From NCBI GenBank assembly GCA_034211275.1, contig JAXHTF010000010.1, forward strand, positions 6,808 to 70,807: 64,000 bases of DNA. Reading direction: 5' to 3'. Both the position numbers and the translations under genes were made by a program. The notes beneath the pieces were generated by a model. It was not told the DNA's origin, did no database searches, and saw only the letters and a list, made by a program, of their open reading frames with translations. Position 1 is the first letter of the stretch. Every line of letters begins with the position of its first letter. The stretch is from Acidobacteriota bacterium (GTDB lineage: Bacteria > Acidobacteriota > Thermoanaerobaculia > Multivoradales > JAHZIX01). Below, in pieces: positions 7,436 through 62,324 of the stretch.

Positions 7436-7629
7436 CGGCCTCTTCCACGGGCTGGCCTACTGATGGGTCGCTACCGTGTAGCAGGCCGCGGTCTCCGAGC
7501 GCAGAGAATCAGGGATCGGAATGGAGTTAGAGAGAGTTTACCAGTCCGAGCCCCGTCTGCGCTGTCCCGGGGTTGCCTTGCCGAGATGGAGCGCCCCGCG
7601 CTGGGTGAGCCATCGCTGCGATGGATCGG

Positions 7630-15986: not shown

Positions 15987-16056
15987 GGGCGCTGAGCTCT
16001 CGGTCGCGTTCCACGTCGCTGCGCCCGGGCCGGCGATCGATGGCAAAATAGGCTCC

Positions 16057-17373
16057 ATGAGAGCTGAAAAAGATTCCGATCCAGGCCTTCCGGGGCGCTT
16101 CCGGCGTCGCTGGGACGCGCTTTCCCCGGTAGGTTCTTGGAGCATCGCGGTCTGGGGCGCCGCGGCGCTCCTCGCCGTCCTCCTCGCCGCCCTCTTCCCG
16201 GCGGGCTCGATGTTCGCGGCGGAAGCCGGGGCTACCTGGCACCTCGACCTCGCCGAGACCGAGCTGCCGGAGGCGCCGGGCATCACTCACACCCATTGGA
16301 CGCTGCAGCGGCCGCCCGGCGGCGACTACGACCGCATCGGCGTCCATCGCTACCGCGCGGCCGAGACCTCCGAGCCGAGCGATGCGTCCCCGGATAGCGG
16401 ACAGGTTCTCTTCTACCTTCCCGGCACCTTCATGCACGGAGCGCCCAGCGGGCTGAGCGAGAGCTACGACCCGTGGCTCTTCCTGGCCCGCCGTGGGGTG
16501 GAGGTCTTCACCCTCGACTATCGGACCCACGCGGTGCCGGTGGCGGCGGAGGATCTGAGCCCCCTGGCGGCCTGGGGCGTCGACCTCTTCGCCGAGGACG
16601 TGCACTCGGGGGTGCGCTGGGCTCTGGAGCAGAGTGGTGTCTCGTCCCTCTTCGTCGCCGGCTTCAGCCGCGGTGCCGGCTTCGCCTACGGTCAGGCCGC
16701 CGCCCATCCGGAGACGGTGGCGGGCATCGTGGCCCTCGACGGCTATTTCAAGAGCTGCGCTGGGCCGGCCAGCAGCGAAGACGGAGAGCTCGAACAACGG
16801 CTGGAGGCCTGGCGCGCCACCGGCGATTGGGCCTCCGACGTTGCCGGCTCCCGCGGTTGGGAAGCTCGCGCCGCACTCATGGCCCGGGCTTTGGAGGCGT
16901 CGGACGGTGCCCGGGAAGCCTCGGCGCAGGAAAAGCACAGCCAAGTGCTCGCCCAGGTGCTGTTCAAAGCCTGGGGGCCCGGAGTCTTGGCCCACCCCCG
17001 GGAGGTTTCTCCCCGGGGGGTGTCCCGGGCGCCGGTGCTGGCGGAGCTGATGGACGACTACGATCGCTATTACCCGAAGGTCCAGGATCTCGAAGCCCGC
17101 GCCGCCGCGGCGGTGATGGATCATCCGGCCCTCGCCGTGGACGACGGTTGGTCCGAGCTGCGCAAGCCGGTGATCTTCTTCGGCTCTACCGGGATGGGTT
17201 CCGAGTTCCTCCTCGGCGGTGTGCACTCTGCCGCCCACGTTGGCGGTCCGCGGGCGCAAATCCACGTGCTGGAAGGCTATGGTCACCTCGATGTGCTGGT
17301 GGCCGAGGAGGCTCGCCAGGAAGTTTTCGAACCGCTGTTGGAATGGCTCCAGGGGCAGTCCACCCAACGATGA
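16057..17373 (+). CDS. secreted alpha/beta hydrolase family protein
   Basis: Hydrophobic signal-like segment (IAVWGAAALLAVLLAALFPAGS). GFSRGAG nucleophile elbow. The C-terminus HVLEGYGHLDV is consistent with a catalytic His region. Confidence 0.55.
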   Translation: MRAEKDSDPGLPGRFRRRWDALSPVGSWSIAVWGAAALLAVLLAALFPAGSMFAAEAGATWHLDLAETELPEAPGITHTHWTLQRPPGGDYDRIGVHRYRAAETSEPSDASPDSGQVLFYLPGTFMHGAPSGLSESYDPWLFLARRGVEVFTLDYRTHAVPVAAEDLSPLAAWGVDLFAEDVHSGVRWALEQSGVSSLFVAGFSRGAGFAYGQAAAHPETVAGIVALDGYFKSCAGPASSEDGELEQRLEAWRATGDWASDVAGSRGWEARAALMARALEASDGAREASAQEKHSQVLAQVLFKAWGPGVLAHPREVSPRGVSRAPVLAELMDDYDRYYPKVQDLEARAAAAVMDHPALAVDDGWSELRKPVIFFGSTGMGSEFLLGGVHSAAHVGGPRAQIHVLEGYGHLDVLVAEEARQEVFEPLLEWLQGQSTQR

Positions 17374-17404: not shown

Positions 17405-19201
17405 ATGACTCTAGGAGCCCGGTCGTTCCTTTTCCGCCCCCGCTGGGGGCTCTCCCGGGCCCCGGAGCGGGCGCGGTGCGCCGTGCTCACCCTGCTGTTG
17501 GCCGCTCACCTGGGAGTGACGGTGGCGGCGGTGCCGCCGCCGGTGCATGGCCATGGCGGCGCGGTGGCGGCGGAGCACCCCTTGGCGACGGAGGTGGGCC
17601 TGGACGTCCTGCGCGCCGGTGGCAACGCCGCAGACGCCGCGGTGGCTGCGGCCCTGGCGCTGGCGGTGGTCTTTCCCGAGGCGGGCAATCTGGGGGGTGG
17701 CGGCTTCGCCGTGGTGCGCTTCGGCGAGCGGGTGACCAGCCTCGACTTTCGCGAGACGGCTCCCGCCGCCGCCACCGCCGACATGTACCTCGACGAGAGC
17801 GGCGAGCCGGTGCGGGAGCGTTCGTTGGTCGGTCCGCTGGCGGCGGGAGTGCCCGGATCCCCGGCGGGGCTCTTCGAGCTTCACCGCGAGCTCGGCGCCC
17901 TGCCCTGGGCGGTGGTGGTGGAACCGGCACGGCGGCTGGCCCTCCAAGGGTTCGAGGTGGACGAGCACCTGCACCGGGTGCTGGCGAGTCATCGGGCTTT
18001 GCTGGAGCGCTTCCCGGAGAGCGCGGCGGTCTGGCTGCCCGCTGGTGAGCCCCCTCCGGTGGGCTCACGGCTCCGCCTGCCGGATCTTGCCGACACCCTC
18101 AAGGGCTATGCCGAGCACGGTCCCGAGGCCATCCTCAGCGGCCCGGTGGCGAAGGCCGTGGAGGAGGTTTCCCGCCGTCACGGGGGCATCCTCACCGCCG
18201 CCGACCTCGAAGCCTACCGCCCCCATTGGCGTGAGCCGGTGCACTTCCAGGCCTTCGGTTGGGACGTCGCCTCCATGTCCTTGCCGTCCTCCGGTGGCAT
18301 CATCCTGGGGCAGGTCAGCCAGGCCCTCGAGGATTTGGGCTGGTCGGAGATGCCGCGCTTCGGTGCGCAGCGTGCTCACCTGATGACGGAGATGCTGCGC
18401 CGCGCCTACGCTGACCGCTATCTGTTGGGCGATCCCGATACCACCGAGGCGCAGCCCGCGGAGTTACTGGCGCCAGAGCACCTGGCGGCGTGGGGCCGAT
18501 CCTTCGATGCCGGCCAGGCCACCGCCTCCCGCCAGGTGCGTTCCCCGGCCGCCGAGCCGGTGGAAGGCAGCGCCGACACCACCCATCTGTCGGTGATCGA
18601 CGCCGACGGCAACCTGGTGGCCCTCACCACTACCATCAATGGGCTTTTCGGCTGCGGCCTCTATGTGCCGGGGGCGGGCTTCTTCCTCAACAACGAGATG
18701 GACGACTTCGCCGCCGCTCCGGGGCGGCCCAACCTTTTCGGGCTGGTCCAAGGTGAGGCCAACAAAGTGCGCGCCGGCCGGCGCATGCTCTCCTCCATGA
18801 GCCCGACGGTGGCGTGGAACGGCGAGGGTGCGGCGGTGGCCTTGGGGGCCCGCGGCGGCTCGCGCATTCCCACCAACACGCTGCAGGTGCTGCTCCACCT
18901 CATCGTTGACGGCGATGACCTGCAAGAGGCCCAGGCGCGGCCGCGGCTGCATCATCAATGGTTACCGGACCACCTGGAAGCGGAGCCCGACGCCCTGGCG
19001 CCGGAGACCCGGGGCGTGCTCGAAACCTACGGTCACGCTCTCCAGATCAGCGCTCGTACCGCCAAGGTGGTGGCGGTGTGGCGGGGCGAGGAGGGGGAGC
19101 TGGCGGCGGCCACCGACCCCCGCGGCACCGGTGCCGGCGGGGTGCTCGAAGAGCCGCCCGCCGAGGTTGTGGCTGAGGACGACGACTCGGGAGATAGCTA
19201 G
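17405..19201 (+). CDS. ggt: gamma-glutamyltranspeptidase
   Basis: GGT family throughout. The autoprocessing/catalytic Thr is in SADTTHLSVID. Signal peptide after the chosen ATG 17405 (GAGGAG 6 nt upstream). The track ORF starts at 17219 and an alternative ATG lies at 17384. Confidence 0.85.
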   Translation: MTLGARSFLFRPRWGLSRAPERARCAVLTLLLAAHLGVTVAAVPPPVHGHGGAVAAEHPLATEVGLDVLRAGGNAADAAVAAALALAVVFPEAGNLGGGGFAVVRFGERVTSLDFRETAPAAATADMYLDESGEPVRERSLVGPLAAGVPGSPAGLFELHRELGALPWAVVVEPARRLALQGFEVDEHLHRVLASHRALLERFPESAAVWLPAGEPPPVGSRLRLPDLADTLKGYAEHGPEAILSGPVAKAVEEVSRRHGGILTAADLEAYRPHWREPVHFQAFGWDVASMSLPSSGGIILGQVSQALEDLGWSEMPRFGAQRAHLMTEMLRRAYADRYLLGDPDTTEAQPAELLAPEHLAAWGRSFDAGQATASRQVRSPAAEPVEGSADTTHLSVIDADGNLVALTTTINGLFGCGLYVPGAGFFLNNEMDDFAAAPGRPNLFGLVQGEANKVRAGRRMLSSMSPTVAWNGEGAAVALGARGGSRIPTNTLQVLLHLIVDGDDLQEAQARPRLHHQWLPDHLEAEPDALAPETRGVLETYGHALQISARTAKVVAVWRGEEGELAAATDPRGTGAGGVLEEPPAEVVAEDDDSGDS

Positions 19202-21060
19202 TCTCGAATCTGCTCCCGGACGCGATCCAGGTCCCACACCTGGATCGTCTCGTCCGCCACGTCCGGCGGTCCCCACAGCTGGTTGAGCCGCTGGCCCATG
19301 GCGGTCCCCTCGCGGTCCATCCAATCCCATTCCCGGCCCCGCAGCTTCCATCCCCGCCGGGGAGAGCGGTGGTCGCCGTCCACCCGGTCCTCCAGCGCTC
19401 CCCGATCCGCGAAGACCACCAGCCAGCGGGCGGGGCTGCGCAGGAAGTCCCGGGGTCGGCCGGGGATCATCTTGTGGATCTGGATGCGCGGATCCCAGAG
19501 CATGCGCTGCATGGGGGCCAGATAGACCGGCCGACGGTGGATGCGCTGCAGGATGTAGGGCGTGCGGGCGAGCCGCCAGCTGGTATGCCAGGGATACTCC
19601 AGCACCGCCTCCTCCTGGGCCTCGGAGCCCTGCTCGGTACCGTTCTCGGCGGCCCTATTTTCGGCGGCCCTGTTCTCGGCGGCTAGACGGAGGTAGAACT
19701 TCGGCACATCCTCCTCGGCCAGCTGCCCCCGAGGGCCGTAGAAGCCCAGGAAATCCTTGTGGTGGGTGAACTCGCTGGTGCGGAAGTCGGTCTGGAGCAG
19801 GGGGCTGGTGAGCACCAGCGCGGCCAACAGTCCGGCGCAAGCGGTCCAACGCAGGCCCTGCTCGGTGCGGGAGGGGCCTCTTCCGCCGCGCCACCACGGC
19901 AGCGTCACCGCCGCCGCCACCCACAGCAGGAGAATGGGGATCAGCACCAGGTTGTAGCGGGTGAATTGGGGTGGCAAGTGCAGGTTGAGGGGTCGCAAGA
20001 CCACCATGCCCACGGCATGGCCCAGCACCAGGGTCAGGGTGTAGAGCCCCAGCCGGCGCCGGTGGCGCAGCAGGAGCCAGAGTCCGGCGACGGCCACGGC
20101 GTAGAAGAGCCCTGCCAGCAGGTTCGAGGTGGAGCCGGATTGCAGGTGGATCACGCCGGCGACGGTGTCGGCGTTGGGCAGCACCAGCTGACGCTTCTCG
20201 CCGATCATCGGTCCGAGGCTGAACCAGCCCGGGATCAGGAAGAGGGCCATGATGCCCAGCACGCCTCCGGCCAGGGCCGCCAAGGGCTGCAGCCGGGTCT
20301 TCAGCGCCGCGATGGTGAAGCCCTCGCGCCGGACGGTGGCCAGCCGCTCGAGGCCGGCGAAAGCCACCGGTGCGAGGACGAAGGCGGTGACCACCAGATG
20401 GAAGTAAATGGCTAGTCCCGCCAGCAGCACATAGACCACTGCCAGCCGGCGGGTGGGAGCCTCCAGCCAGCGATAGAAGACCGCCACGGCGGCGAAGGAG
20501 ATGAGCACCACCGGGGCGTAAGAGCGGACGATGCGTCCATAGAGCACGAAGATCGGCGAGATCGCCAGCAGGAAGGCGAAGACCGCGGCGGTGGAGCGGG
20601 GGATGGATCGGCGCAGCAGCCACGGCCCGCCGACCACCAGGGCCAGGGACGACAGCAGAATGGGCAGCCGCAGCGCCATCTCGCTGAAGGGCACCGGCGA
20701 GACCAGCAGCAGACGATAGAGGGACGAGAGGGGAAGGCAGGCGTCCTGGGGCCGGTAGGTGACGAGGATCTCCGGGAAGGAGAGCTCGAGCACGGCGCGC
20801 ACGGCGTGGAGCTCGTCGCCACCGAGGATCTGGCCCGGCAGCCCCCAGAAGCGCACGAAAGCTCCCAAGCCCAGGATGGGCAGTAGGGTCAGCAGCAGCC
20901 TCCGGCCGCCGCTCTCGCCCTCGGTGTGCACTGACGGATTTTGCTTCAAGAGCGACTTCCCCGGGGCAGCTGGGCGACCCGATCCGGTGCCAGCCGGCGG
21001 ATCTTGGGGAGGATGGCCCGCTGGCCGTCGTCGTCGACGTGGGGGCTGTAGTACTCCCAC
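19198..21060 (-). CDS. GT-C fold membrane glycosyltransferase (ArnT/PMT superfamily, GT39/GT83-like)
   Basis: Multi-TM protein with the N-terminal loop motif FVRFWGLPGQILGGDELHAVRAV. Large C-terminal periplasmic domain. Contains an AAENRAAENRAAEN tandem repeat. The start is uncertain: GTG 21060 overlaps the upstream gene by 114 bp, and an alternative GTG lies at about 20931. Confidence 0.6.
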   Translation of the reverse strand: MGVLQPPRRRRRPAGHPPQDPPAGTGSGRPAAPGKSLLKQNPSVHTEGESGGRRLLLTLLPILGLGAFVRFWGLPGQILGGDELHAVRAVLELSFPEILVTYRPQDACLPLSSLYRLLLVSPVPFSEMALRLPILLSSLALVVGGPWLLRRSIPRSTAAVFAFLLAISPIFVLYGRIVRSYAPVVLISFAAVAVFYRWLEAPTRRLAVVYVLLAGLAIYFHLVVTAFVLAPVAFAGLERLATVRREGFTIAALKTRLQPLAALAGGVLGIMALFLIPGWFSLGPMIGEKRQLVLPNADTVAGVIHLQSGSTSNLLAGLFYAVAVAGLWLLLRHRRRLGLYTLTLVLGHAVGMVVLRPLNLHLPPQFTRYNLVLIPILLLWVAAAVTLPWWRGGRGPSRTEQGLRWTACAGLLAALVLTSPLLQTDFRTSEFTHHKDFLGFYGPRGQLAEEDVPKFYLRLAAENRAAENRAAENGTEQGSEAQEEAVLEYPWHTSWRLARTPYILQRIHRRPVYLAPMQRMLWDPRIQIHKMIPGRPRDFLRSPARWLVVFADRGALEDRVDGDHRSPRRGWKLRGREWDWMDREGTAMGQRLNQLWGPPDVADETIQVWDLDRVREQIRD

Positions 21061-22319
21061 ACCACTTCACCGTCGGGGGTCACCTCCAGCGCTCGGCCGT
21101 CCTCCGATTCGGCGAGGAGGGTGTTGCCGTTGGGCAGCCGCTGGCTGGAGCCCCGGGCGATGGTGTAGAGCTCCGGCGCCCGGTACTCCCAGACGATCTC
21201 GTCGGTGCGGGGGTCGATCTCCACCACCCGCGACCACCCTCGCCCCAGACCGTTGTCGAAGAGCAGGACGTGGCCGTTGTCCAGTAGCGTGGCGTCGTGG
21301 GGTCCGGAGATCTCTCCCTGCCCCCAGGCCCACAGGAGCTCGCGCCGGGGCCAGTCGATGATCGCCACGACGTCCTGGTGGCGGCAGGTGAGGAGCAGGT
21401 TGTCCGGGCTGTAGAGGGCATCTTCGGCGGCGAGCTCCGGCGACGGTGTCAGCCATTCGAGGCCGTTGCAGTGCAGCAGCCCGATGCTCTCGACGCCGTC
21501 CTCCTTCTCCCGCGCCTCCACCTTCTGGAGCTGAAAGCGCTCCGGCTGGCTGCGCAGCAGGTCGAGGATGGAAGCACTCTCAAGCTTCTCGCCGTCGGCG
21601 CTCAAGAGCTGGATGCGGTTGTCGTGGATGCGGGCGGTGGGGTGGATGCTCTCGTCCCAGCGGCGCCGGGAGGTGAGCACGGCGATCCTTCCGTCGGGGA
21701 GCACGTCCATCTCGTGATGGGCCCGCAGCTGCCGCTTCCACAGCACCCCGCCGTCCCAATTCAGCTTCATCAATACGCGGCTCTTGCGGCCAGTGGCCGA
21801 GCTCCCGGGGGTGGATTCGGCCTCTTCCGCGTCCTCGTCGTCGACCTCGTCCTCGTCCGACTTCGCTGCGGCGGAGCGGGCTCTCTCGGTGGTGACCTTG
21901 CCCTCGGTTGCGATGACCAGCAGGGTGTTGTCCTCCAGCAGCTCCGCGTGGCCCCAATGAGCGCAGGGGGACTTCTCCCAGCGGTGCACGACCTTGCCTC
22001 GGGGGCTTATGAGCTCGGCGGCGCAGTCCTCTTCAATCACCACCAGGTTGTAGCCGGGGAAAGAGCGCTGCGGGTCGAAGACGGTCACCTTCTGGAGATT
22101 CGGATCGGCGGCGCCGGCACCGCCAGCGTAGGGCAGGGCGCGTAGAGCATCCAGGTCCTGGGGGTCGACGGCTCCGGGGCTCGCCGCGGCGCTGTCCGGT
22201 TCCGTCGGCGGAGTGTCTTGCGGAGCTCCGGAGGGAGCGGGACCGCAGGCGAAGAGCACGCCCGCGAGGAGGAGCATCGAGACGGACGGCAGCGAGATCT
22301 GGCGCAAAGTCGGCATCAT
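20946..22319 (-). CDS. arylsulfotransferase (ASST)-like beta-propeller lipoprotein
   Basis: Start ATG 22319 overlaps the upstream stop (ATGA). Lipobox LLLAGVLFACG. ASST-like motifs HDATLLDNGHVLLFDNG, VVEIDPRTDEIVWEY and LLLTCRHQDVVAIIDW. The track ORF runs upstream to 22904 without support. Confidence 0.6.
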   Translation of the reverse strand: MMPTLRQISLPSVSMLLLAGVLFACGPAPSGAPQDTPPTEPDSAAASPGAVDPQDLDALRALPYAGGAGAADPNLQKVTVFDPQRSFPGYNLVVIEEDCAAELISPRGKVVHRWEKSPCAHWGHAELLEDNTLLVIATEGKVTTERARSAAAKSDEDEVDDEDAEEAESTPGSSATGRKSRVLMKLNWDGGVLWKRQLRAHHEMDVLPDGRIAVLTSRRRWDESIHPTARIHDNRIQLLSADGEKLESASILDLLRSQPERFQLQKVEAREKEDGVESIGLLHCNGLEWLTPSPELAAEDALYSPDNLLLTCRHQDVVAIIDWPRRELLWAWGQGEISGPHDATLLDNGHVLLFDNGLGRGWSRVVEIDPRTDEIVWEYRAPELYTIARGSSQRLPNGNTLLAESEDGRALEVTPDGEVVWEYYSPHVDDDGQRAILPKIRRLAPDRVAQLPRGSRS

Positions 22320-24199
22320 CTTTGGGTTCGACAGGAGGGCAGTGGATTCGATGGGTCGGAGGACGCGGGGGCCGAAGCCGGGCTTTGGAAATAGAGCGGG
22401 TTGGTGAAGGCCAGGCCGCGGCCTCCCTGCCAGACCTCCACCCGGATGAATCCCGGATCCCCCACCGTGGTCAACAGCTCGGAACGATAGATCCTTGGGC
22501 TCCCGTCGCCGGGCCCGTTGCTGGTTGGACCACCGGCGTCCTGCCCGGCCGCCGAGGTCTCTTCCTGAGCCACTCGCCCGTCGACGATCCAGCGGATACG
22601 GCTGTTGGTGGGCAAGCCCGTGGCTTCCAGTACCAGCTCTTGGGACGCGCCGTTGGGCTCGATGACCTGGCCCATGGGGCGTCCGTCGGCGGTGGTCAGC
22701 TCCAGGGTGCCGCGGAAGCGGGCCGGATCGGCGAAGAAGGCGCGGCCGCACCGCAATCCCTCGATGAGCCCCGGGCGGCTGGTGTCCTTCGCCCACACCC
22801 AGGTCAGGAAATTGTTGCCTCCTCGCCAGCCCTCGTCTTGGTCGTGGGAGTCGCTGGTGCCGATCCCCGTGACCACGGTGCCGGCGGCGCTCAGCCGGTC
22901 CCACACCGCCAGGTGCTGGGACAGCGGCAGCACTCGTTGCGGATACCCCACCTCCAGCAGGTCGGCGCCGTAGAGGCGTTCCCGGACGGCGAGCTCACCG
23001 CGCTGGGCGAGCTCTTCCTGAACCTCTTCCTCCGGCTCGTCGCCGGCGCCGAAGATGTGATTGTAGCTCACCACCCCGCCCCGTTCGTGCACCCAGTCGA
23101 CGGTTGCCTGGGGCTCCATGCCGTGGGGGAACGTGTCGAAATCCGGTAGCTCCACCCGTGGCAGAAAGGCGTTGAAGTGGACTCCGTAGCTGATTTCCAG
23201 GCCCACGTGCTGGACGATGCCCGACGCCGCCTCCAGCTCTTGCGCCCTCTCCTCTTCCAAGGCGAGGACCGCCGTGCCGTCCCGCAGGGTTTGGAGGCGC
23301 AAGTCGTCCACCAGGACCCGCGCCTCGGCGCCTCGGCGCACCCAGAGTCGCACGTCGACCCGCCGCAGGCTGTTGTCCCCGTCGCCCAGGTCCAGCTCCT
23401 GGGCATCCTGGGACACCGGCAGGGTCAGGCGGGTCCACTGCTCCGGGGGCGCTGCCACCGGTACCACGCCCACCACCTTGCCGCCTTGGGTTCGCCGCCG
23501 CCGGGGGCCGGTCTCGCCGACCCGGTACACCAGCTCCGCCAGTCCTTCTTCCTGCCGCGACAGGGCCAGGCGGATCTCCAGCTGAGCGTTCTCCCCCAGC
23601 GCCGTCTCCGGCCGCACCGCCAGCTCGACGGTGACCTCGGAGCTCAGCGGGCGGGTGTAGCGGCCGCCGCTGGCGTCCACCTCGCCGCCGGTCCAGCCCC
23701 AGGAGAGCTCGCCGGGGCGGGCGCGGGCGGTCAGTTCCAGCGCGCCGTCGCCCTGGAGTGCCTCACGGCTGATCTCCTGCTCCGCCACCGCCAGCGCCTC
23801 GCCGCCGTCCCGGCGATGCCAGGCGGTGAGGATCTTGCGCGGGCGCTTGCTCCAGGGGGCGCCGCGATGGGGGATGGGGACGCGCCGGCGCAGCTGATCG
23901 AAGTCGAAGCTGTCGACGAAGGTGTGGCGGGCGATGCGCCAGTCGTGATCGGTCCACCACAGGACGTCGACACCGCCCAGCTCCTGGGCCGCGCGGGTCT
24001 GTCCGGCCATGGTGCCGACACCTTCGCTGAGGCTGCCGTGAAGGTGCAGCTGCACCGAGTAATAGCGGCCGGATGACGCCGTCGACTCCGGCTCGGGGGC
24101 TCCGCAGGCGGCGAGGAGGACCATCCCCGTCAGCAGGCTCCCCAACAACAGGCCCTTCGACCATAGACCCGCGTCGATCCATCGGGAAGCGGCGGTCAT
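22316..24199 (-). CDS. PHP-domain (CehA/McbA-like) metal-dependent phosphoesterase lipoprotein
   Basis: Start ATG 24199 (GGAGAAG upstream) overlaps the upstream stop (ATGA). Lipobox LLAACG. PHP motifs LHLHGSLSEG, WWTDHDW and IGTSDSHD. Confidence 0.6.
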   Translation of the reverse strand: MTAASRWIDAGLWSKGLLLGSLLTGMVLLAACGAPEPESTASSGRYYSVQLHLHGSLSEGVGTMAGQTRAAQELGGVDVLWWTDHDWRIARHTFVDSFDFDQLRRRVPIPHRGAPWSKRPRKILTAWHRRDGGEALAVAEQEISREALQGDGALELTARARPGELSWGWTGGEVDASGGRYTRPLSSEVTVELAVRPETALGENAQLEIRLALSRQEEGLAELVYRVGETGPRRRRTQGGKVVGVVPVAAPPEQWTRLTLPVSQDAQELDLGDGDNSLRRVDVRLWVRRGAEARVLVDDLRLQTLRDGTAVLALEEERAQELEAASGIVQHVGLEISYGVHFNAFLPRVELPDFDTFPHGMEPQATVDWVHERGGVVSYNHIFGAGDEPEEEVQEELAQRGELAVRERLYGADLLEVGYPQRVLPLSQHLAVWDRLSAAGTVVTGIGTSDSHDQDEGWRGGNNFLTWVWAKDTSRPGLIEGLRCGRAFFADPARFRGTLELTTADGRPMGQVIEPNGASQELVLEATGLPTNSRIRWIVDGRVAQEETSAAGQDAGGPTSNGPGDGSPRIYRSELLTTVGDPGFIRVEVWQGGRGLAFTNPLYFQSPASAPASSDPSNPLPSCRTQR

Positions 24200-25617
24200 A
24201 ACTTCTCCAGAGCTTTGAAGGCGGGCTCCATGCTGCGCTGCCAGCCCGCCGCTACGAGGAGCAGGAAGAGTCCCACGGTAGCGGCTGCACCGGCCCAGCG
24301 CCATCGCTGAGCCCTGCTCAACAAGCCAACGGAGCCGGAAAGGGCACCCAGTAGAGCACCCGCGTAGAGCATCAGCAGGGGCAATATCGGTACGTGGAAG
24401 CGGGGGATGGCGTTGGCCAGCACGTGCACCCCGATGGTGAGCAGCAGCGCCGCCAGCATCAGCGGTTTGAAATGAGGATCCGGCACCAGCCACAGGCCGG
24501 CTAAGGCGGCCACCATCAACAGCAGGTAGAGGCCCACTTCGGTGCTCAGCAGGACCACGGCGGTGGAGCGGGAGAGGCCGGGGATCCACTCATTCTCCAC
24601 GAAGCGCACTGTCTGGCTGTGCACCGACCACAGGCGCACATTGTTGCGCGCCAGCTTCTTGAACAGCCAAGCGGGCTGCTCGGCGCCGATGGACTCCAGC
24701 GCGATCTGCCGCCAATAGGCTTCCGCCTCCAGCTCGCTCATACCCTCCGGTGCCGCCTTGCGCAGAGGACCGCCCAGACCGTCCCCTAGCAGCCAGTCGT
24801 CTTCCGGCAGCAGATTGCCCACGGCGATGGGCATCCAGCGGCAGGTGGAGATCACCACCGGCGCGCCGTGGACCGCGGTGTTGCGCACCGTCCATGGCAG
24901 CACCACCGCCGCGGCGGCGGCGCAGAAGAGGAGGGCCGGCTTCCAGCCTTGGCGCAGGCCCGCTCGTAGCGTTTGGGGGATCTGGCGGAACGAGAGCCGG
25001 TCGCTCCCCGGGGCGAGCTGCCAGACGACCCACAGCGCGCCCACGGCGGTGAAGAAGAGCCAGACCTCCTTGGTCAGGGCGGTGAGGCCGAGGGCGGCGC
25101 CGGCGGCGAGGAGGAAGCCCCGCTGCCGGCTCGTACGCCAGCGCTCCAGCAGCCACAGGGTGAGTACCAGCAGCGCTGCCGCCAGTCCCTCCGACCATAG
25201 GAAGTGGCTGTAGTGCACCAGCGCCGGCTGCAGCGCGCAGGCCAGACCAGCGGCGAGGCCTGCCGCTGGGCCGAAGCGGCGCCGGGCGAGGTCGTAGACT
25301 CCCGCCACCAGCGCCGTGGAGAGCAGAATCTGCACCAGCCGTATAGCGTCGAGGCCGCCGCCAAGGCGCAGCACGACGGCCATCAGGGTCGGATAGAGGG
25401 GGGGGCGGAAGGAGCCTGGGTGGCCCTCGCCGGCGGCGATGGACTCGGCCATGCGCACATAGTAGGACTCGTCGCCGCGCAGATCCTCCACTGGCGCGAA
25501 GGGTAGCCAGGCCAGGAGACGGACGGCGAAGGCGAAGAGCAACAGCCCACCGACCCACCAGCGGTACCGGTGGGTCGGTGAGGATGAAGAAAGCTGATCT
25601 GGAGCTGATGCGGACAT
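24196..25617 (-). CDS. GT-C fold membrane glycosyltransferase, ArnT-like (GT83/GT39 family)
   Basis: 473 aa, about 11 TM segments. ArnT-like first-loop motif GDESYYVRMAESI (compare DExRYAE). Confidence 0.7.
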   Translation of the reverse strand: MSASAPDQLSSSSPTHRYRWWVGGLLLFAFAVRLLAWLPFAPVEDLRGDESYYVRMAESIAAGEGHPGSFRPPLYPTLMAVVLRLGGGLDAIRLVQILLSTALVAGVYDLARRRFGPAAGLAAGLACALQPALVHYSHFLWSEGLAAALLVLTLWLLERWRTSRQRGFLLAAGAALGLTALTKEVWLFFTAVGALWVVWQLAPGSDRLSFRQIPQTLRAGLRQGWKPALLFCAAAAAVVLPWTVRNTAVHGAPVVISTCRWMPIAVGNLLPEDDWLLGDGLGGPLRKAAPEGMSELEAEAYWRQIALESIGAEQPAWLFKKLARNNVRLWSVHSQTVRFVENEWIPGLSRSTAVVLLSTEVGLYLLLMVAALAGLWLVPDPHFKPLMLAALLLTIGVHVLANAIPRFHVPILPLLMLYAGALLGALSGSVGLLSRAQRWRWAGAAATVGLFLLLVAAGWQRSMEPAFKALEKL

Positions 25618-25648
25618 GAAGGGGCCGCCACCGGCGGCCGGAGGGCAG

Positions 25649-27370
25649 CTAGGCTACCGTCTCGCGCACCACCTCTTCGATGGTGGTGACGCCGTCGCGG
25701 ATCTTCTGCAAACCACTCTGGCGCAGGGTGAGCATGCCCAGCTCGATGGCGCGCTGGCGCAGCTCGTAGGAGCTGGCGCCGGAGAGGATCATCTCGCGCA
25801 TGTCGTCGCCCACGCCCATCACCTCGTAGAGGCCGACGCGGCCCTTGTAGCCGGTACCGTTGCAGCGGTCGCAGCCGCGGCCCCGGAAGAGCTTCAGCCC
25901 CTTGGCCTCGCGCTCGTTGAAGCCGACGTTGACCAGCGCCGCCGGCGGTGCCTCCGAAGGCTCCTTGCAGTAGCTGCACACGCGCCGCACCAGACGCTGG
26001 GCCACCACCATATGCACCGAGGTGGCCACCAGGAAGGGTTCGATACCCATGTTCATCATGCGGCTGATGGACGACGGAGCGTCGTTGGTGTGTAGGGTGG
26101 AGAGCACCAAGTGACCGGTCATGGCGGCCTTGATGGCGACCTCGGCGGTTTCGAAGTCGCGGATCTCACCCACCAGGATGATGTTCGGGTCCTGGCGCAG
26201 GAAGGAGCGCAGGGTCGAGGCGAAGTTGAGGCCGATCTGCTCCTTCATCTGCACCTGGTTGATGCCCGGCAGGTTGAACTCCACCGGATCCTCGGCGGTC
26301 ATGATGTTGACCTCCGGGGTGTTGATGCGGGAGAGGGCGGAGTACAGCGTGTTGGTCTTGCCCGAACCCGTGGGGCCGGTGACCAGAACCATGCCGTAGG
26401 GCTTCAAAATGGCTTGCTCGAAGGAGCGCAGGGAGTCCGGCTCGAACCCCAACTTGGTGAGGTCGAGCATCAGGTTGTCCTGGTCCAGCAGCCGCATGAC
26501 GATCTTCTCGCCGAAGAGCGTCGGCAGCACCGAGACTCGGTAGTCCAGGGACTTGATCTTGCCGGAGATGCGGGTGCGGATCTTGATGCGGCCGTCCTGG
26601 GGAAGCCGCTTCTCGGCGATGTCCAGCTTGGCCATGATCTTGGCGCGGCTGGTGATCGCCTCGCGCAGCTTGAGGGGCGGCCGCATCACTTCGTAGAGAA
26701 TGCCGTCGATGCGGTAGCGGACGCGGAATTCCTTCTCGTAGGGCTCGACGTGGATGTCCGAGGCGCCGCGCTTGATGGCGTCGGTGAGCACCAGGTTCAC
26801 CAGCTTGACCACCGGCGCCGTCTCCGACTCCTCCTCGAGGCTGGAGAGATCCAGATCCTCGTCTTCCTCCAGCACCTCCAGGTCCGACTCGTCTTCCTCC
26901 GTCAGGTCGTCCATGACCTTCTTGAGCTCGACGGCGTGGGTGCTGCCGTAGTAGCTGTCGATGGCGGTGCGGATGGCGTTGTCCGAAGCCAGCACCGGCT
27001 GCACCTGGTAGCCGGTCATGAACTTGATGTCGTCCATGGCGAAGACGTTGCTGGGATCGCTCATCGCCAGCGTCACCTTCGCTCCCGCCTTGGAGACCGG
27101 CAGGACCGTGTACTTGCGCGCAATGTCGGCGGGGATGATGCCGATCACCGACTCGTCGACTTCCATGTTGGTGAGATCTACCGCCGGAACACCGAAGTGC
27201 TTGGAGAGGAACTCGGTGAGCTCGGCTTCGGTGAGCAGGCCCAGGCTGACCAGCGCGGCGCCCAGGCGCCCGCCGTGCTCCTTCTGATGCTGCAGGGCCT
27301 GCTTCAGCTGGCTCTTGTCGATCTTGCCGGCGCTGAGCAGCGCCTCGCCGAATCTTTCTTGTATTGCCAT
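25649..27370 (-). CDS. pilB: type IV pilus assembly / type II secretion ATPase (GspE/PilB family)
   Basis: 573 aa. N-terminal GSPII_E_N-like domain, Walker A GPTGSGKT, Asp and His boxes, tetracysteine motif CSYC...CDRC. A lone gene with no adjacent pilT/pilC/pilM genes. Confidence 0.8.
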   Translation of the reverse strand: MAIQERFGEALLSAGKIDKSQLKQALQHQKEHGGRLGAALVSLGLLTEAELTEFLSKHFGVPAVDLTNMEVDESVIGIIPADIARKYTVLPVSKAGAKVTLAMSDPSNVFAMDDIKFMTGYQVQPVLASDNAIRTAIDSYYGSTHAVELKKVMDDLTEEDESDLEVLEEDEDLDLSSLEEESETAPVVKLVNLVLTDAIKRGASDIHVEPYEKEFRVRYRIDGILYEVMRPPLKLREAITSRAKIMAKLDIAEKRLPQDGRIKIRTRISGKIKSLDYRVSVLPTLFGEKIVMRLLDQDNLMLDLTKLGFEPDSLRSFEQAILKPYGMVLVTGPTGSGKTNTLYSALSRINTPEVNIMTAEDPVEFNLPGINQVQMKEQIGLNFASTLRSFLRQDPNIILVGEIRDFETAEVAIKAAMTGHLVLSTLHTNDAPSSISRMMNMGIEPFLVATSVHMVVAQRLVRRVCSYCKEPSEAPPAALVNVGFNEREAKGLKLFRGRGCDRCNGTGYKGRVGLYEVMGVGDDMREMILSGASSYELRQRAIELGMLTLRQSGLQKIRDGVTTIEEVVRETVA

Positions 27371-27754
27371 GTACCTACCAGACGGATCCTGCGTCAGCGC
27401 TTCCTGAAGAATTCCCGAAGGGAGTATTCAGCCTGACGGTTGTTTGGGTGACCCGGCCGCGAAGCGACGCTCCGGTGTTCCACCTTGGCGCGCCGAGCCT
27501 CCTGCCGGAGATTCCCTGTAGCCCCACAAACCGCACGACTACCTCTGCGCCCGAGAAAGGAGCAGTCTAGCAACCGGTGCGGAGAAGGGTCAACGCGCGG
27601 CGGTTTGGCGTGGCAGGCCACCCTTAGCGTTTCTTTAGCCAAACCTCGGCCAATCCTCGGGATCCGAAGGCGGTGACTGGCCCATGCTCGCGAGTGCCCG
27701 CTATGGCGAGGCGACCCATGGGCCTATGGACCAACCGCCAAGGAGATCCGAAGC

Positions 27755-37466: not shown

Positions 37467-38549
37467 TCATTCGGTCCAGCGCAGCGCTTCCAGCGGTTCC
37501 GGATCCGCCAGCACCGCCTGCCGCAGCTCTTCCGGGCCGAGGGTGGCGGTGCCCATCTTCATCACCACGATGCCGCCGGCGTAGTTGGCTAGCGCCGCCG
37601 CTTCCAGGGGCGTGGCGCCGGCTGCCACCGCCAGGGCGAAGGTGCCGATGACCGTGTCGCCGGCGCCGGTGACGTCCGCCACCTGATCTGTGCCGTGCAC
37701 CGGCATCTGCCAGACCCCCCGTGGGTCGAAGAGGGCCATGCCCCGGCTGCCCCGCGTGATCAGCAGAAAGCGTGCGGAGAGGCGTTCCACCAGCCGCCGG
37801 CCGGCTTCCGCCAGGGCGTCGTCGGTCTCCGACAGCGGTCCGCCCAGGAGGTTCTCCGCCTCCTCCTCGTTGGGGGTGGCGCCGTCCATGGCGACGAAAT
37901 CCGCCAGGCGATAGCGGCTATCGCACAGGATGGTGCCGCGGCCGCCGCCCTGGCTCTCGAACTCCCGGCGCAGCCCATCGGCGAAGACGGGCTCGGCGGT
38001 ACCGTAGCCGTAGTCGCTGAGTACGGCGACGGAGGCACCGGCGGCGGCGGTGCGCAGGCGGCGGCGGAGCTCCTCGGCACGGGCCGGGTCCGGCGGCAGG
38101 GATTGCTCGATGTCGTAGCGCACCACCTGCTGCTTGATGGCATGACGGCCGCCGGCGAGGATGCGGGTCTTGGTGGGGGTGCGGTAGCCGGAGAGGCGCA
38201 GGATGCCGTCGGTGGCGATGCCTCGCTCGGCGAAGACCTGCAGCAGGCGTTGGCCGCTGGCGTCGTCGCCCACCACCCCCACCGGCCGCGGTTCCCCTCC
38301 CAGGGCGCGGACGTTGGCGACGGCGTTGGCGCCGCCGCCGGGAATCACGCTCTCGCTCTCGTAGCTGAGGATCAGCACCGGAGCCTCGCGGCTGATGCGT
38401 TTGGGAGCTCCGGTGATGAAGTGATCCGCCACCAGGTCCACCAGCATCACTACCGGCTGGCCGGCGAGGGCGTCGATGAGCTCCAGCAGCCGTTCCTGAG
38501 ACGGCGGAGCTCCGAGGGTCGAGCTGGTGGGGGGATGGGCTGAGGTCAT
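37467..38549 (-). CDS. hldA: D-beta-D-heptose 7-phosphate kinase (RfaE domain I type, PfkB family)
   Basis: 360 aa ribokinase/PfkB fold with the C-terminal motif DVTGAGDTVIGTFALAV. Co-oriented with hldC and the heptosyltransferase. Confidence 0.75.
   Translation of the reverse strand: MTSAHPPTSSTLGAPPSQERLLELIDALAGQPVVMLVDLVADHFITGAPKRISREAPVLILSYESESVIPGGGANAVANVRALGGEPRPVGVVGDDASGQRLLQVFAERGIATDGILRLSGYRTPTKTRILAGGRHAIKQQVVRYDIEQSLPPDPARAEELRRRLRTAAAGASVAVLSDYGYGTAEPVFADGLRREFESQGGGRGTILCDSRYRLADFVAMDGATPNEEEAENLLGGPLSETDDALAEAGRRLVERLSARFLLITRGSRGMALFDPRGVWQMPVHGTDQVADVTGAGDTVIGTFALAVAAGATPLEAAALANYAGGIVVMKMGTATLGPEELRQAVLADPEPLEALRWTE

Positions 38550-57560: not shown

Positions 57561-62324
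<4,764 letters not shown>

What the first reader, a model, noticed from the sequence alone, without database searches (positions are those of the whole stretch)
19198..25617. Four-gene ATGA-coupled envelope operon: ArnT-like GT-C transferase, PHP phosphoesterase lipoprotein, arylsulfotransferase-like lipoprotein, second GT-C transferase
Minus strand, in order: GT-C (24196..25617), PHP lipoprotein, ASST-like propeller lipoprotein, GT-C (19198..21060). The first three are joined by ATGA stop-start overlaps at 24196-24199 and 22316-22319. The last pair overlaps or abuts. The combination of two lipid-linked-sugar-dependent GT-C glycosyltransferases with a periplasmic sulfotransferase-like propeller and a PHP metallophosphoesterase is not a pathway I recognise. 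It suggests a periplasmic glycosylation/sulfation or phospho-editing system acting on a lipid, glycan or protein acceptor.
Basis: partly seen in the sequence, partly recalled or inferred. Interest (0 to 1): 0.55.

Follow-up and report, generated by a model that had tools for sequence, protein, structure and literature searches.

The report
Periplasmic glycan-editing operon in Acidobacteriota
An uncultured Acidobacteriota bacterium carries a tightly coupled operon of two membrane sugar-transferases and two periplasmic lipoprotein enzymes. Its conserved core, a sugar-transferase paired with a metal-dependent hydrolase and fused into one protein in some relatives, looks like an undescribed module for remodelling a cell-envelope molecule.

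Summary
On the minus strand lie G1 (GT-C, 24196-25617), G2 (PHP-type CehA/McbA metallohydrolase lipoprotein, 22316-24199), G3 (ASST-fold lipoprotein, 20946-22319) and G4 (divergent GT-C, 19198-20949). They are joined by 4-nt overlaps ATGA, ATGA and TTGA. G4 starts at TTG 20949, not 21060.

pilB lies 31 nt upstream on the same strand in every orthologous locus.

The four-gene order recurs in at least four diverged Acidobacteriota lineages. G3 keeps the residue that aligns with the catalytic His436 of E. coli AssT, plus the partners of His252 and Arg374.

The emphasis shifts, however. G3 is accessory, being absent from two orthologous loci. The conserved core is GT-C plus PHP hydrolase: adjacent in 8 further genomes, including Myxococcota-labelled MAGs, and fused into one ~1100-aa protein in two independent assemblies.

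The "sulfatases" near relatives mostly carry an NPP-like Thr nucleophile, and PhoD also occurs, so the theme is phosphoester rather than sulfate.

Most likely this is a periplasm-facing module that removes a phosphate or ester from an envelope glycoconjugate, glycosylates it, and optionally sulfates it. The acceptor is unknown; LPS or pilin are candidates. I rate it a new variant of a known kind, of moderate interest.

The parts
27564..27593 (-). Only sigma-70-like promoter match in the region, about 195 nt upstream of pilB. A weak lead only.
   Evidence: 1 site found against 0.6 expected from shuffles, so not significant on its own.
25649..27370 (-). pilB, the type IV-A pilus assembly ATPase with an N-terminal MshEN (c-di-GMP-binding type) domain. 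It is the conserved upstream neighbour and a possible first gene of the transcription unit.
   Evidence: Pfam T2SSE E 1e-140 plus MshEN E 2e-25. TIGR02538 PilB equivalog, 795 bits against cutoff 676. Directly upstream of G1 orthologues in L001 (99% identity), L002 (87%) and L087 (89%).
25618..25648 (-). 31-nt pilB/G1 spacer holding a 7-bp G+C hairpin (GGCCGCC-GGT-GGCGGCC) with no T-run.
   Evidence: MFE -29.3 kcal/mol for 61 nt, z = -2.8. Partly conserved in L001. No terminator-like hit.
24196..25617 (-). G1: a 473-aa GT-C glycosyltransferase of the PMT/ArnT clade. It has at least 8 hydrophobic segments and a GDE motif (D49-E50) in the first external loop.
   Evidence: PMT_2 E 1.8e-15. Profile A3 hits Pmt1 6p25 (E 1.2e-11) and ArnT 5ezm (E 7.2e-10) with the DE motif aligned. 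TM scan.
22316..24199 (-). G2: a 627-aa lipoprotein. It is a PHP-type (CehA/McbA family) metallohydrolase barrel interrupted by a beta-jelly-roll domain (about residues 100-305), with a C-terminal beta-sandwich.
   Evidence: NF038032, 103.7 bits against cutoff 80. Invariant H54, H85, E335, H341, H381, D450, H452 and near-invariant H52. The only PDB profile hit is PHP phosphoesterase 9etk, with the HxH / DH / H motifs aligned. AF2 pLDDT 89. Foldseek top hits are GH12/CBM11 jelly rolls. ATGA overlap with G1.
20946..22319 (-). G3: a 457-aa lipoprotein with a six-bladed beta-propeller of the PAPS-independent aryl-sulfotransferase (ASST) fold and the catalytic His retained. It is an accessory member of the operon.
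   Evidence: PF14269 E 3e-15 and PF05935 E 4e-9. AF2 pLDDT 85. Foldseek top hits are Cpz4 (9kf6, E 1.7e-16) and E. coli ASST (3elq/4p04, about 1e-10). The profile alignment puts H341 on AssT H436, H202 on H252 and R313 on R374. Absent in L087/L088 and L005.
19198..20949 (-). G4: a 583-aa divergent GT-C with at least 9 hydrophobic segments in residues 18-352, a GDE motif at D45-E46, and a family-specific soluble C-terminal domain of about 200 aa. TTG start in a TTGA overlap with the G3 stop.
   Evidence: P0230, 583 aa, 100% identity; NCBI name 'glycosyltransferase family 39 protein'; hhalign against the G1 family, probability 97.6%. PMT_2 is sub-threshold. No PDB profile hit.
35838..38549 (-). 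Context only: ADP-heptose synthesis halves (PfkB 37467-38549; cytidylyltransferase-like 36933-37412) and an LPS heptosyltransferase-I-like GT9 (35838-36905). These genes lie directly upstream of pilB in L002. In the window they are separated from pilB by two plus-strand genes.
   Evidence: (TIGR02193 E 2.4e-51, below its cutoff).

Best explanation
The genes form one functional unit. It works on the periplasmic face of the inner membrane and edits a phosphorylated envelope glycoconjugate.

Shown:
- Two polyprenyl-phosphate-sugar-type GT-C transferases (G1, G4) flank two exported lipoprotein enzymes.
- All junctions are 4-nt overlaps, which implies co-translation.
- G1-type GT-C and G2-type PHP hydrolase are an evolutionarily locked pair, adjacent across phyla and fused in one polypeptide in some Acidobacteriota.

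Inferred mechanism:
- The PHP metallohydrolase is held at the membrane by its lipid anchor, or by fusion to the GT-C. Its inserted lectin-like jelly roll guides it to a glycan.
- It removes a phosphate or phosphoester (or another ester) from the acceptor.
- The GT-C(s) then install sugar(s) from a lipid-linked donor at or near that site. This is a 'phosphate-for-sugar swap', in the logic of LpxE/LpxF + RgtD/RgtF on lipid A.
- Where present, the ASST-fold enzyme G3 adds a sulfuryl group to the new sugar through a sulfo-His341 intermediate, from an as yet unknown sulfate-ester donor. Cpz4 sulfates a sugar hydroxyl in a comparable way.

The acceptor is unknown. LPS lipid A/core is my first guess and pilin or another exported protein the second.
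For: Coupling.
- ATGA/ATGA/TTGA overlaps are present in the window and conserved in L001 and L087.

Synteny.
- pilB-G1-G2-G3-G4 occurs in L001 (84-99% identity) and L002/L003 (38-87%).
- G2-G3-G4 occurs on a 5.9-kb Logan contig, with G2 at 60% identity.

GT-C/PHP core.
- A G1-like GT-C lies directly upstream on the same strand in L005, L012-L015 and L017-L019. That is 8 of the 15 best-scoring genome loci, and they include Myxococcota-labelled MAGs. The same holds in L087.
- An in-frame GT-C::PHP fusion occurs in L006 (1140 aa, PMT_2 E 1.7e-6) and in P0319 (1111 aa, PMT_2 30.1 bits, above cutoff). The two are 69% identical over their full length, so this is not an assembly artefact.

Independent third lineage, L020.
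- The order is AP-family gene, GT-C, ASST (4-nt overlap), GtrA-domain gene, PHP, AP-family gene (4-nt overlap).

Catalytic competence.
- DE motifs are conserved in both GT-Cs.
- G2 keeps a full PHP ligand set.
- G3 keeps the AssT His436, His252 and Arg374 equivalents. EcAST active-site residues are taken from PMC13426309.

Glycan and phosphoester theme in the G2 family.
- G2 has a jelly-roll insert. Relatives carry Malectin fusions.
- One relative has an overlapping PhoD next to pstSCAB-like genes.
- Neighbouring PF00884 genes mostly carry the NPP-like T-x-P-S-H Thr motif.

LPS hint.
- The hldE halves and a heptosyltransferase-like GT9 lie directly upstream of pilB in L002 and on the same strand in the window.

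Precedents.
- Cpz4 sulfates a sugar hydroxyl (PMC13426309).
- The Lpx/Rgt logic, and 'unknown phosphatases' in lineages lacking LpxE/F, are described in PMC7663294.
Against: - No biochemical data exist for any member.
- G2's named relatives, CehA/McbA, hydrolyse a carbamate ester, not a phosphoester. G2 does not reach Pfam PHP (PF02811). Its PDB PHP hit is weak (E 0.027).
- No lipid-linked-sugar synthase (GtrB/ArnC type) or flippase is in the operon, and none was found among the window ORFs I scanned.
- No sulfate-donor pathway is visible.
- The full four-gene order is confined to one Acidobacteriota clade. More distant G4-like genes (44% identity or less; 80 metagenome loci) are not linked to PHP or ASST.
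- Many G2-family members stand without a GT-C: 63 of the 79 genome loci had no G1-like GT-C within 10 kb.
- The LPS link rests on gene order in two genomes only.
Confidence: 0.5

Rival explanations
1. Type IV pilin (or general secreted-protein) O-glycosylation system. G1/G4 act as PMT- or TfpW-like protein glycosyltransferases on pilin as it is assembled by the co-transcribed PilB machinery. G2/G3 trim or sulfate the pilin glycan or phospho-form.
For: - pilB is the invariant upstream neighbour in the Acidobacteriota clade, with a gap of 35 nt or less or an overlap.
- A prepilin gene (GFTLIELMIVVAIIG...) lies directly upstream of PHP in L010 and L049, and upstream of GT-C-PHP in L019.
- The G1 profile's best solved relative is the protein O-mannosyltransferase Pmt1.
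- A GT-C that glycosylates pilin is known: TfpW (bioRxiv 10.1101/2020.04.19.049825).
Against: - No pilin motif was found anywhere in the 64-kb window.
- pilB is far more conserved than G1-G4 (87-99% against 38-88%), as expected for a housekeeping gene that merely sits upstream.
- A strong hairpin separates pilB from G1.
- Most GT-C/PHP loci have neither pilB nor pilin.
Confidence: 0.15
2. There is no shared substrate. G2 and G3 are periplasmic scavenging or detoxifying enzymes (phosphoester or aryl-ester hydrolysis, phenol sulfation). They merely share an operon with unrelated membrane glycosyltransferases through inherited gene order.
For: - G2 relatives sit with PhoD and pst genes and with AP-superfamily hydrolases.
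- G3 relatives are a large multi-copy family in varied contexts.
- CehA/McbA and classical ASSTs both act on small aryl esters and phenols.
Against: - The GT-C::PHP fusion is conserved at 69% identity.
- GT-C/PHP adjacency is found in loci labelled Acidobacteriota and Myxococcota.
- 4-nt overlaps are conserved at every junction.
- GT-C-ASST-PHP has been assembled independently in L020.
Confidence: 0.15
3. One reading: the operon's main purpose is periplasmic, PAPS-independent sulfation of a glycan built by the two GT-Cs, with G2 as a helper.
For: - G3 has the ASST fold and a conserved catalytic His with sulfuryl-binding partners.
- G3 is present in most members of the clade.
- Cpz4 is a precedent for sugar sulfation.
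Against: - G3 is absent in L087/L088 and L005, while G1-G2-G4 stay intact and overlapped.
- The cross-phylum core lacks an ASST.
- The neighbouring 'sulfatases' are mostly Thr-type, NPP-like.
- No donor-forming genes were found.
- G3 is only 13-16% identical to characterised ASSTs, so sulfuryl rather than, say, phosphoryl transfer is unproven.
Confidence: 0.12

Closest known systems
Lipid A phosphate-to-galacturonate replacement: LpxE/LpxF phosphatases plus RgtD/RgtF GT-C transferases (Rhizobium, Caulobacter, Aquifex-type lipid A)
   Same: A periplasm-facing phosphatase step is coupled to two ArnT-like GT-C transferases that use a polyprenyl-phosphate sugar (PMC7663294). There are two GT-Cs and one hydrolase, as here. 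LPS core genes lie in the same gene neighbourhood.
   Different: - LpxE/F are integral-membrane PAP2 enzymes, not PHP lipoproteins.
- No RgtE-like donor synthase is present here.
- No ASST is known in that system.
- Homology of G1/G4 to Rgt proteins was not tested, as no sequences were available.
- The acceptor here is unknown.
ArnT (GT83) and PMT (GT39) GT-C glycosyltransferases
   Same: G1 shares the PMT_2 domain, a multi-TM N-terminal catalytic module and a DE motif in the first external loop. Its profile hits both 5ezm and 6p25.
   Different: - G1 is small (473 aa). It lacks the MIR domains of PMTs and the Arn operon partners.
- G4 is so divergent that only profile-profile comparison links it.
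- The GT39/GT83 assignment is unresolved.
Gtr-type three-component periplasmic glycosylation (GtrB synthase, GtrA flippase, GT-C), including the pentofuranose systems of Kelly et al. 2024
   Same: Both involve post-assembly, periplasmic addition of sugars by a GT-C from a lipid-linked donor (PMC11127046). The related locus L020 does carry a GtrA-domain gene between ASST and PHP.
   Different: The window operon has no synthase or flippase. Instead it carries two soluble periplasmic enzymes, PHP and ASST, that have no counterpart in Gtr systems.
PAPS-independent aryl sulfotransferases: E. coli AssT (3ELQ) and Cpz4 (9KF4/9KF6)
   Same: G3 shares the six-bladed propeller, with best Foldseek hits of E 1e-16 to 1e-10. 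The catalytic His and the His/Arg sulfuryl-binding residues are aligned and invariant. Like AssT it is periplasmic.
   Different: - Identity is 13-16%.
- G3 has no N-terminal beta-sandwich domain.
- It is lipid-anchored.
- No dsbL/dsbI partners were found.
- It is embedded between GT-C genes.
- Donor and acceptor are unknown.
PHP-superfamily phosphoesterases and the CehA/McbA carbaryl hydrolases
   Same: G2 scores above cutoff against the NCBIfam CehA/McbA domain. The HxH ... H ... E ... H ... H ... DxH ligand pattern is conserved. Motif-level alignment to PHP phosphoesterase 9etk was obtained.
   Different: - The barrel is split by a jelly-roll insertion of about 200 aa.
- G2 is a lipoprotein.
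- It is paired with or fused to a GT-C.
- There is no Pfam PHP hit.
PlcP-Agt phosphate-sparing lipid remodelling pair (cited from my own knowledge, not checked here)
   Same: A metallophosphoesterase gene adjacent to a glycosyltransferase gene replaces a phosphate-containing head group by a sugar.
   Different: That pair is cytoplasm-facing. It uses a GT-A/GT-B-type transferase and nucleotide sugars, with unrelated folds.

Membership tests
GT-C glycosyltransferase, PMT/ArnT clade (G1) | PMT_2/PMT domain above the curated threshold | tested here: met
   PF13231, 57.9 bits against cutoff 26.1. PF02366, 23.4 bits against 22.7.
GT-C glycosyltransferase, PMT/ArnT clade (G1) | Polytopic membrane protein with a catalytic Asp-Glu motif in the first extracytoplasmic loop | tested here: met
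   At least 8 hydrophobic segments. GDE (D49-E50) follows TM1 and aligns to the DE of Pmt1 and ArnT. D49 is conserved in at least 90% of 20 sequences.
GT83 (ArnT) as opposed to GT39 (PMT) | Clearly better match to one family's solved members or models | tested here: inconclusive
   Pmt1 E 1.2e-11 against ArnT E 7.2e-10. No CAZy models were available.
GT-C glycosyltransferase (G4) | PMT_2 domain above the curated threshold | tested here: not met
   23.2 bits against cutoff 26.1. No PDB hit with profile A4.
GT-C glycosyltransferase (G4) | Homology to a bona fide GT-C family with the catalytic DE motif in register | tested here: met
   hhalign A3 against A4: probability 97.6%, E 4.6e-12, 339 columns, GDE aligned. 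D45 and E46 are invariant in 27 sequences. At least 9 hydrophobic segments.
PHP-type / CehA-McbA metallohydrolase (G2) | Family model above the curated cutoff | tested here: met
   NF038032, 103.7 bits against cutoff 80, residues 320-604.
PHP-type / CehA-McbA metallohydrolase (G2) | Conserved metal ligands (HxH, H, E, H, H, DxH) | tested here: met
   H54, H85, E335, H341, H381, D450 and H452 are invariant, and H52 is conserved in at least 90% of 36 sequences. The HxH / DH / H motifs align to 9etk.
PHP-type / CehA-McbA metallohydrolase (G2) | Match to Pfam PHP (PF02811) | tested here: not met
   No hit at E <= 0.1.
PHP-type / CehA-McbA metallohydrolase (G2) | Phosphoesterase (or other hydrolase) activity | not testable with these tools
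   Needs an enzyme assay.
Bacterial lipoprotein (G2, G3) | Signal peptide ending in a lipobox with an invariant Cys | tested here: met
   G2 ...LLAAC|GAPEP and G3 ...VLFAC|GPAPS. One N-terminal hydrophobic segment each. C25 of G3 is invariant.
PAPS-independent aryl sulfotransferase (ASST) (G3) | Six-bladed beta-propeller of the ASST type | tested here: met
   PF14269 and PF05935 above cutoff. Foldseek top hits are Cpz4 and E. coli ASST.
PAPS-independent aryl sulfotransferase (ASST) (G3) | Catalytic histidine (EcAST His436) | tested here: met
   The profile alignment places the invariant G-P-H341-D-A on Q-H436 of 3elq. The residue's role is taken from PMC13426309.
PAPS-independent aryl sulfotransferase (ASST) (G3) | Sulfuryl-binding residues His252, His356, Asn358, Arg374, Thr501 | tested here: inconclusive
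   H202 on H252 and R313 on R374 are aligned. H283/N285 and T400 are invariant and in the right order, but no alignment to H356/N358/T501 could be obtained.
PAPS-independent aryl sulfotransferase (ASST) (G3) | N-terminal beta-sandwich domain and DsbL/DsbI partner genes, as in E. coli assT | tested here: not met
   In the AF2 model, residues 26-75 are a low-confidence linker and the rest is propeller only. No dsb-like genes were found among the window ORFs scanned.
PAPS-independent aryl sulfotransferase (ASST) (G3) | Sulfuryl transfer from aryl sulfates | not testable with these tools
   Needs an assay with pNPS or MUS donors.
Gtr/Arn-type periplasmic glycosylation system | Adjacent polyprenyl-phosphate sugar synthase (GT2) and flippase | tested here: not met
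   None in the operon or among the scanned window ORFs. A GtrA-domain gene is present only in the distant locus L020.
Type IV-A pilus ATPase PilB (upstream gene) | Equivalog model above the cutoff | tested here: met
   TIGR02538, 795.4 bits against cutoff 675.65.

The most novel reading that the evidence does not exclude
GT-C plus PHP-lipoprotein, fused in some species, is a previously unrecognised two-enzyme machine. It swaps a phosphate on an outer-envelope lipid such as lipid A for a sugar. This would fill the role of the 'unknown phosphatases' in lineages lacking LpxE/LpxF. In this clade an ASST-fold enzyme then re-installs negative charge as sulfate. If so, this would be the first physiological, envelope-building role for a periplasmic PAPS-independent sulfotransferase, and a phosphorus-sparing route to an anionic outer membrane.
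Probability: 0.15. Interest if true: 0.8.

Novelty: new variant of a known kind. Interest (0 to 1): 0.5.

Why it matters
Periplasmic GT-C systems such as Arn, Rgt and Gtr set outer-membrane charge, antimicrobial-peptide resistance and serotype. None is known to be hard-wired to a PHP-fold hydrolase or to an ASST-fold enzyme.

The conserved GT-C/PHP pair and its natural fusion give a concrete, testable two-enzyme module in Acidobacteriota and Myxococcota-labelled MAGs, which are poorly studied.

For most periplasmic aryl sulfotransferases the natural acceptor and physiological role are unknown (PMC13426309). An ASST wedged by 4-nt overlaps between envelope enzymes offers a defined genetic context in which to look for a natural substrate.

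If the phosphate-for-sugar (and sulfate) reading is right, it bears on how bacteria build anionic envelopes under phosphorus scarcity.

Tried and rejected
- Direct sequence searches of G1, G2 and G4 against PDB found nothing. Profiles were needed.
- The G4 profile found no solved relative.
- A sub-fragment search meant to align G3 H283/N285 with AssT H356/N358 failed.
- My first crude gene caller and single-linkage clustering were unreliable. ORF starts ran too far upstream in high-GC DNA and swallowed neighbouring genes. The 'sulfatase' cluster was contaminated with GT-C ORFs. I replaced the caller with stop-to-stop ORFs plus iterated HMMs and with motif checks. The earlier figure of 'sulfatase in 15 loci' is withdrawn. 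About 10 loci carry PF00884-type genes, and most of those genes are Thr-type.
- The metagenome scan with the G4 profile returned only distant paralogues (44% identity or less) with no PHP or ASST linkage. They sit after 4HBT-TPP-enzyme genes.
- I rejected a true-sulfatase theme as support for sulfation.
- I rejected the idea that the GT-C::PHP fusion is a frameshift artefact, because two assemblies 69% identical keep it.
- Literature searches for PF14269, for ASST with Acidobacteria, and for PHP with GT-C found no prior description.
- No prepilin motif was found in the window.

Full report
**1. What is there**

The window is high-GC DNA (about 67%) from an Acidobacteriota MAG. Proteins P0001, P0121 and P0230 are 100% identical to three of its products and come from a 74,302-bp NCBI contig.

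Five genes lie in a row on the minus strand:
- pilB, 25649-27370
- G1, 24196-25617
- G2, 22316-24199
- G3, 20946-22319
- G4, 19198-20949

All have coding-type composition, with GC3 0.84-0.92.

G4 does not start at 21060. Its start is TTG 20949, the start of the deposited 583-aa protein. The third junction is therefore TTGA. The same three overlaps are kept in L001, and two ATGA overlaps in L087.

Downstream, a convergent gamma-glutamyltranspeptidase gene ends 4 nt inside G4's stop. Upstream of pilB is a divergent Big_9/cadherin gene.

**2. Gene identities**

G1 is a 473-aa GT-C.
- It hits PMT_2 at E 1.8e-15.
- A profile of 20 relatives hits yeast Pmt1 (E 1.2e-11) and ArnT (E 7.2e-10) with the catalytic DE motif aligned.
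- GT39 and GT83 therefore cannot be told apart.

G4 falls below the PMT_2 threshold and finds no solved relative.
- Its family profile aligns with the G1 family profile at hhalign probability 97.6%, with the GDE motifs in register.
- It has at least 9 hydrophobic segments followed by a family-specific soluble C-terminal domain of about 200 aa.

G2 is a lipoprotein (lipobox LAAC).
- It scores 103.7 bits against NCBIfam's CehA/McbA metallohydrolase domain, above the cutoff of 80.
- A full PHP-like ligand set is conserved: H52, H54, H85, E335, H341, H381, D450 and H452.
- Its only PDB profile hit is a PHP phosphoesterase, with the motifs aligned. That hit is weak, at E 0.027.
- The AF2 model (pLDDT 89) shows the barrel interrupted by a beta-rich domain of about 200 aa. 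Foldseek matches that domain to GH12/CBM11 jelly rolls, so it looks like a carbohydrate-binding insert.

G3 is a lipoprotein whose Cys25 is invariant in 36 homologues.
- It hits both ASST Pfam families.
- Its AF2 model (pLDDT 85) matches Cpz4 (E 1.7e-16) and E. coli AssT (about 1e-10) best.
- The profile-to-AssT alignment puts invariant H341 on the catalytic His436, H202 on His252 and R313 on Arg374. The residue roles come from PMC13426309.
- H283/N285 and T400 are invariant and in the right order to match His356/Asn358 and Thr501. I could not obtain that alignment.

**3. Synteny**

The second refutation criterion, 'not syntenic elsewhere', is also not met.

| Locus | Genes present | Identity to the window |
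|---|---|---|
| L001 | pilB-G1-G2-G3-G4 | 99 / 85 / 85 / 84 / 88% |
| L002/L003 (GCA_039191605.1 and a Logan contig) | pilB-G1-G2-G3-G4 | 87 / 46 / 38 / 51 / 50% |
| 5.9-kb Logan contig | partial gene-G2-G3-G4 | G2 60% |
| L087/L088 | pilB-G1-G2-G4, no G3 | pilB 89, G1 60, G2 56, G4 68% |
| L005 | G1-G2-G4, no G3 | G2 56% |

In addition, a 5.4-kb JGI contig appears to carry G2, G3 and G4 at 79-85% identity. I infer this from the shared contig length reported.

L087/L088 have the same downstream GGT, hydrolase and TPR genes as the window, and ATGA overlaps at both junctions.

G3 is therefore an accessory gene. It was probably ancestral in this clade and lost once, or else gained more than once.

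**4. The conserved core**

I scanned one genome per species with the G2 profile. This gave 264 tblastn-confirmed stretches, of which 79 loci were kept. Iterated HMM searches over all stop-to-stop ORFs followed.

- A G1-like GT-C ends within about 15-150 nt upstream of the G2-like gene, on the same strand, in L005, L012, L013, L014, L015, L017, L018 and L019.
- These loci all lie among the 15 best-scoring loci. They carry Acidobacteriota, Myxococcota, 'Deltaproteobacteria' and other MAG labels.
- In L006 (Acidobacteriota OFTM223) the two are one 1140-aa ORF: an N-terminal PMT_2 GT-C (E 1.7e-6), the usual periplasmic tail, then the PHP module in place of a lipoprotein signal.
- The exhaustive 1.84-billion-protein search returned a second fusion as its best non-self hit. 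This is P0319, 1111 aa, with PMT_2 at 30.1 bits (above cutoff) and the G2 match at residues 545-1095.
- P0319 is 69% identical to the L006 ORF across the whole length. It comes from a different NCBI contig, so the fusion is genuine.

A further independent assembly is L020, a MAG with 74% GC. Its gene order is AP-family gene, GT-C, ASST (4-nt overlap), GtrA-domain gene, PHP, AP-family gene (4-nt overlap). Two more PMT_2 genes and a G4-like gene lie nearby.

Together these results argue that GT-C and PHP hydrolase act on the same substrate, and that ASST can join them.

**5. Clues to chemistry**

- G2 relatives are fused to Malectin or CARDB domains and T9SS tails.
- One 48%-identical relative has its start overlapped by a PhoD gene, next to pstSCAB-like genes.
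- PF00884 'sulfatase' genes flank the module in L002, L006, L020 and others. Most carry T-x-P-S-H-x-S-x-x-T-G rather than C-x-P-x-R (13 Thr against 7 Cys among those with a recognisable motif).
- From my own knowledge, that is the NPP-type Thr nucleophile motif of phosphodiesterases.

The recurring theme is therefore phosphoester chemistry on a glycan, not sulfate-ester hydrolysis.

**6. Clues to the acceptor**

(a) LPS.
- In L002 the two ADP-heptose synthesis genes and a heptosyltransferase-like GT9 lie directly upstream of pilB.
- In the window the same trio is on the same strand at 35838-38549. It is separated from pilB by two plus-strand genes, an RHS-repeat gene and a Big_9 gene.
- Wzm- and Wzt-type genes are also in the window.

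(b) Type IV pili.
- pilB is always upstream in this clade.
- A prepilin gene lies directly upstream of PHP or GT-C-PHP in L010, L019 and L049.
- However, the window has no pilin motif.
- pilB is far more conserved than G1-G4.
- A stable hairpin sits in the pilB/G1 spacer.

Neither acceptor is established.

**7. Mechanism proposed**

Shown:
- The enzymes are periplasm-facing and the genes are translationally coupled.
- The GT-C/PHP pair is evolutionarily locked.
- Catalytic motifs are intact in all four proteins.

Inferred:
- The PHP hydrolase removes a phosphate or ester from an envelope glycoconjugate.
- The GT-Cs then add sugars from lipid-linked donors. This parallels LpxE/LpxF with RgtD/RgtF on lipid A (PMC7663294). 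That paper also notes that lineages without LpxE/F must use unknown phosphatases.
- G3, where present, sulfates the product through sulfo-His341, much as Cpz4 sulfates a sugar hydroxyl.

I put about 0.5 on the general statement that this is one unit editing one periplasmic glycoconjugate. Within that, I put about 0.25 on LPS/lipid A and about 0.15 on pilin or another protein as acceptor.

Rivals are pilin glycosylation as the main purpose, unrelated scavenging enzymes sharing an operon, and sulfation as the core function. They are set out with their tests in the rival-explanations section.

**8. Novelty and verdict**

The parts belong to known superfamilies, and the general logic of periplasmic GT-C tailoring is known (PMC11127046).

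Three things were not found described in the searchable literature:
- the obligate GT-C/PHP pairing and its fusion
- the jelly-roll-split PHP lipoprotein
- an ASST-fold gene translationally coupled between two GT-Cs

I rate this a new variant of a known kind, with interest 0.5.

Noticed in passing
L006:8273-11695 (+); protein P0319: A natural in-frame fusion of a PMT_2 GT-C to the G2-type PHP hydrolase (1140 and 1111 aa, 69% identical to each other). In L006 it is flanked by four PF00884 genes and two GDSL lipase genes.
   Followed up: yes
window 27755-35729 (+): A Big_9/cadherin gene (918 aa) and an RHS-repeat gene (1756 aa) lie between the LPS heptosyltransferase-like GT9 and pilB. In L002 the GT9 gene is directly upstream of pilB, so this pair looks like an insertion in the window's lineage. 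The Big_9 gene also sits directly upstream of pilB in L001; that contig ends inside it, so the RHS gene is not visible there.
   Followed up: partly
window 25618-25648 (-): A perfect 7-bp G+C hairpin (GGCCGCC-GGT-GGCGGCC) sits in the 31-nt spacer between pilB and G1, ending 7 nt before the G1 ATG, with no T-run. It could uncouple or stabilise the downstream message.
   Followed up: partly
window 19198-19201: The stop codons of G4 (minus strand) and the convergent gamma-glutamyltranspeptidase gene (plus strand) overlap in the palindrome CTAG. The same 4-nt tail-to-tail overlap occurs in L001.
   Followed up: no
L002:11388-12833 and 15383-16801; L006:4002-5495 and 6934-8325; L020:11839-13194; L004:6514-8001: Genes called 'Sulfatase' (PF00884) next to GT-C/PHP or ASST-like genes carry T-x-P-S-H-x-S-x-x-T-G (an NPP-like Thr nucleophile) instead of the formylglycine C-x-P-x-R motif. 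Many have lipoboxes. They are probably phosphodiesterase-like enzymes rather than sulfatases.
   Followed up: partly
L010:~9141, L019:~7598, L049:~9129: Type IV prepilin genes (GFTLIELMIVVAIIG...) lie directly upstream of the PHP-like gene or of the GT-C-PHP pair in Myxococcota-type MAG loci.
   Followed up: partly
L011, L012, L013, L017, L018, directly downstream of the PHP-like gene: A conserved cysteine-rich secreted protein of about 250 aa, with no family assignment and repeated C-P-x-G...G-V-S...L-x-C units, follows the GT-C-PHP pair in Myxococcota-type loci. It is a possible substrate or partner.
   Followed up: no
P0005; L174:3581-11495: The ASST-like lipoprotein family is expanded. One protein carries two tandem ASST domains (792 aa), and one locus carries three copies within 8 kb, next to molybdopterin oxidoreductase genes.
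   Followed up: no
L090:4364-8004, L092 and L093: More distant G4-like GT-C genes (35-41% identity) sit after a conserved 4HBT thioesterase and TPP-enzyme pair. In L090 they occur as tandem duplicates. They have no PHP or ASST neighbours.
   Followed up: partly
window 49408-50199 and 62445-63761 (+); 50284-53202 (-); 57405-62324 (+): Wzm-like (ABC2_membrane) and Wzt-like (ABC_tran + Wzt_C) polysaccharide exporter genes are interspersed with very large PKD- and FG-GAP-repeat surface proteins.
   Followed up: no
P0380, P0408, P0417, P0437: G2-family hydrolases in other phyla are fused to Malectin domains with T9SS sorting tails, or to CARDB domains. This fits glycan-directed, cell-surface roles for the family.
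   Followed up: partly
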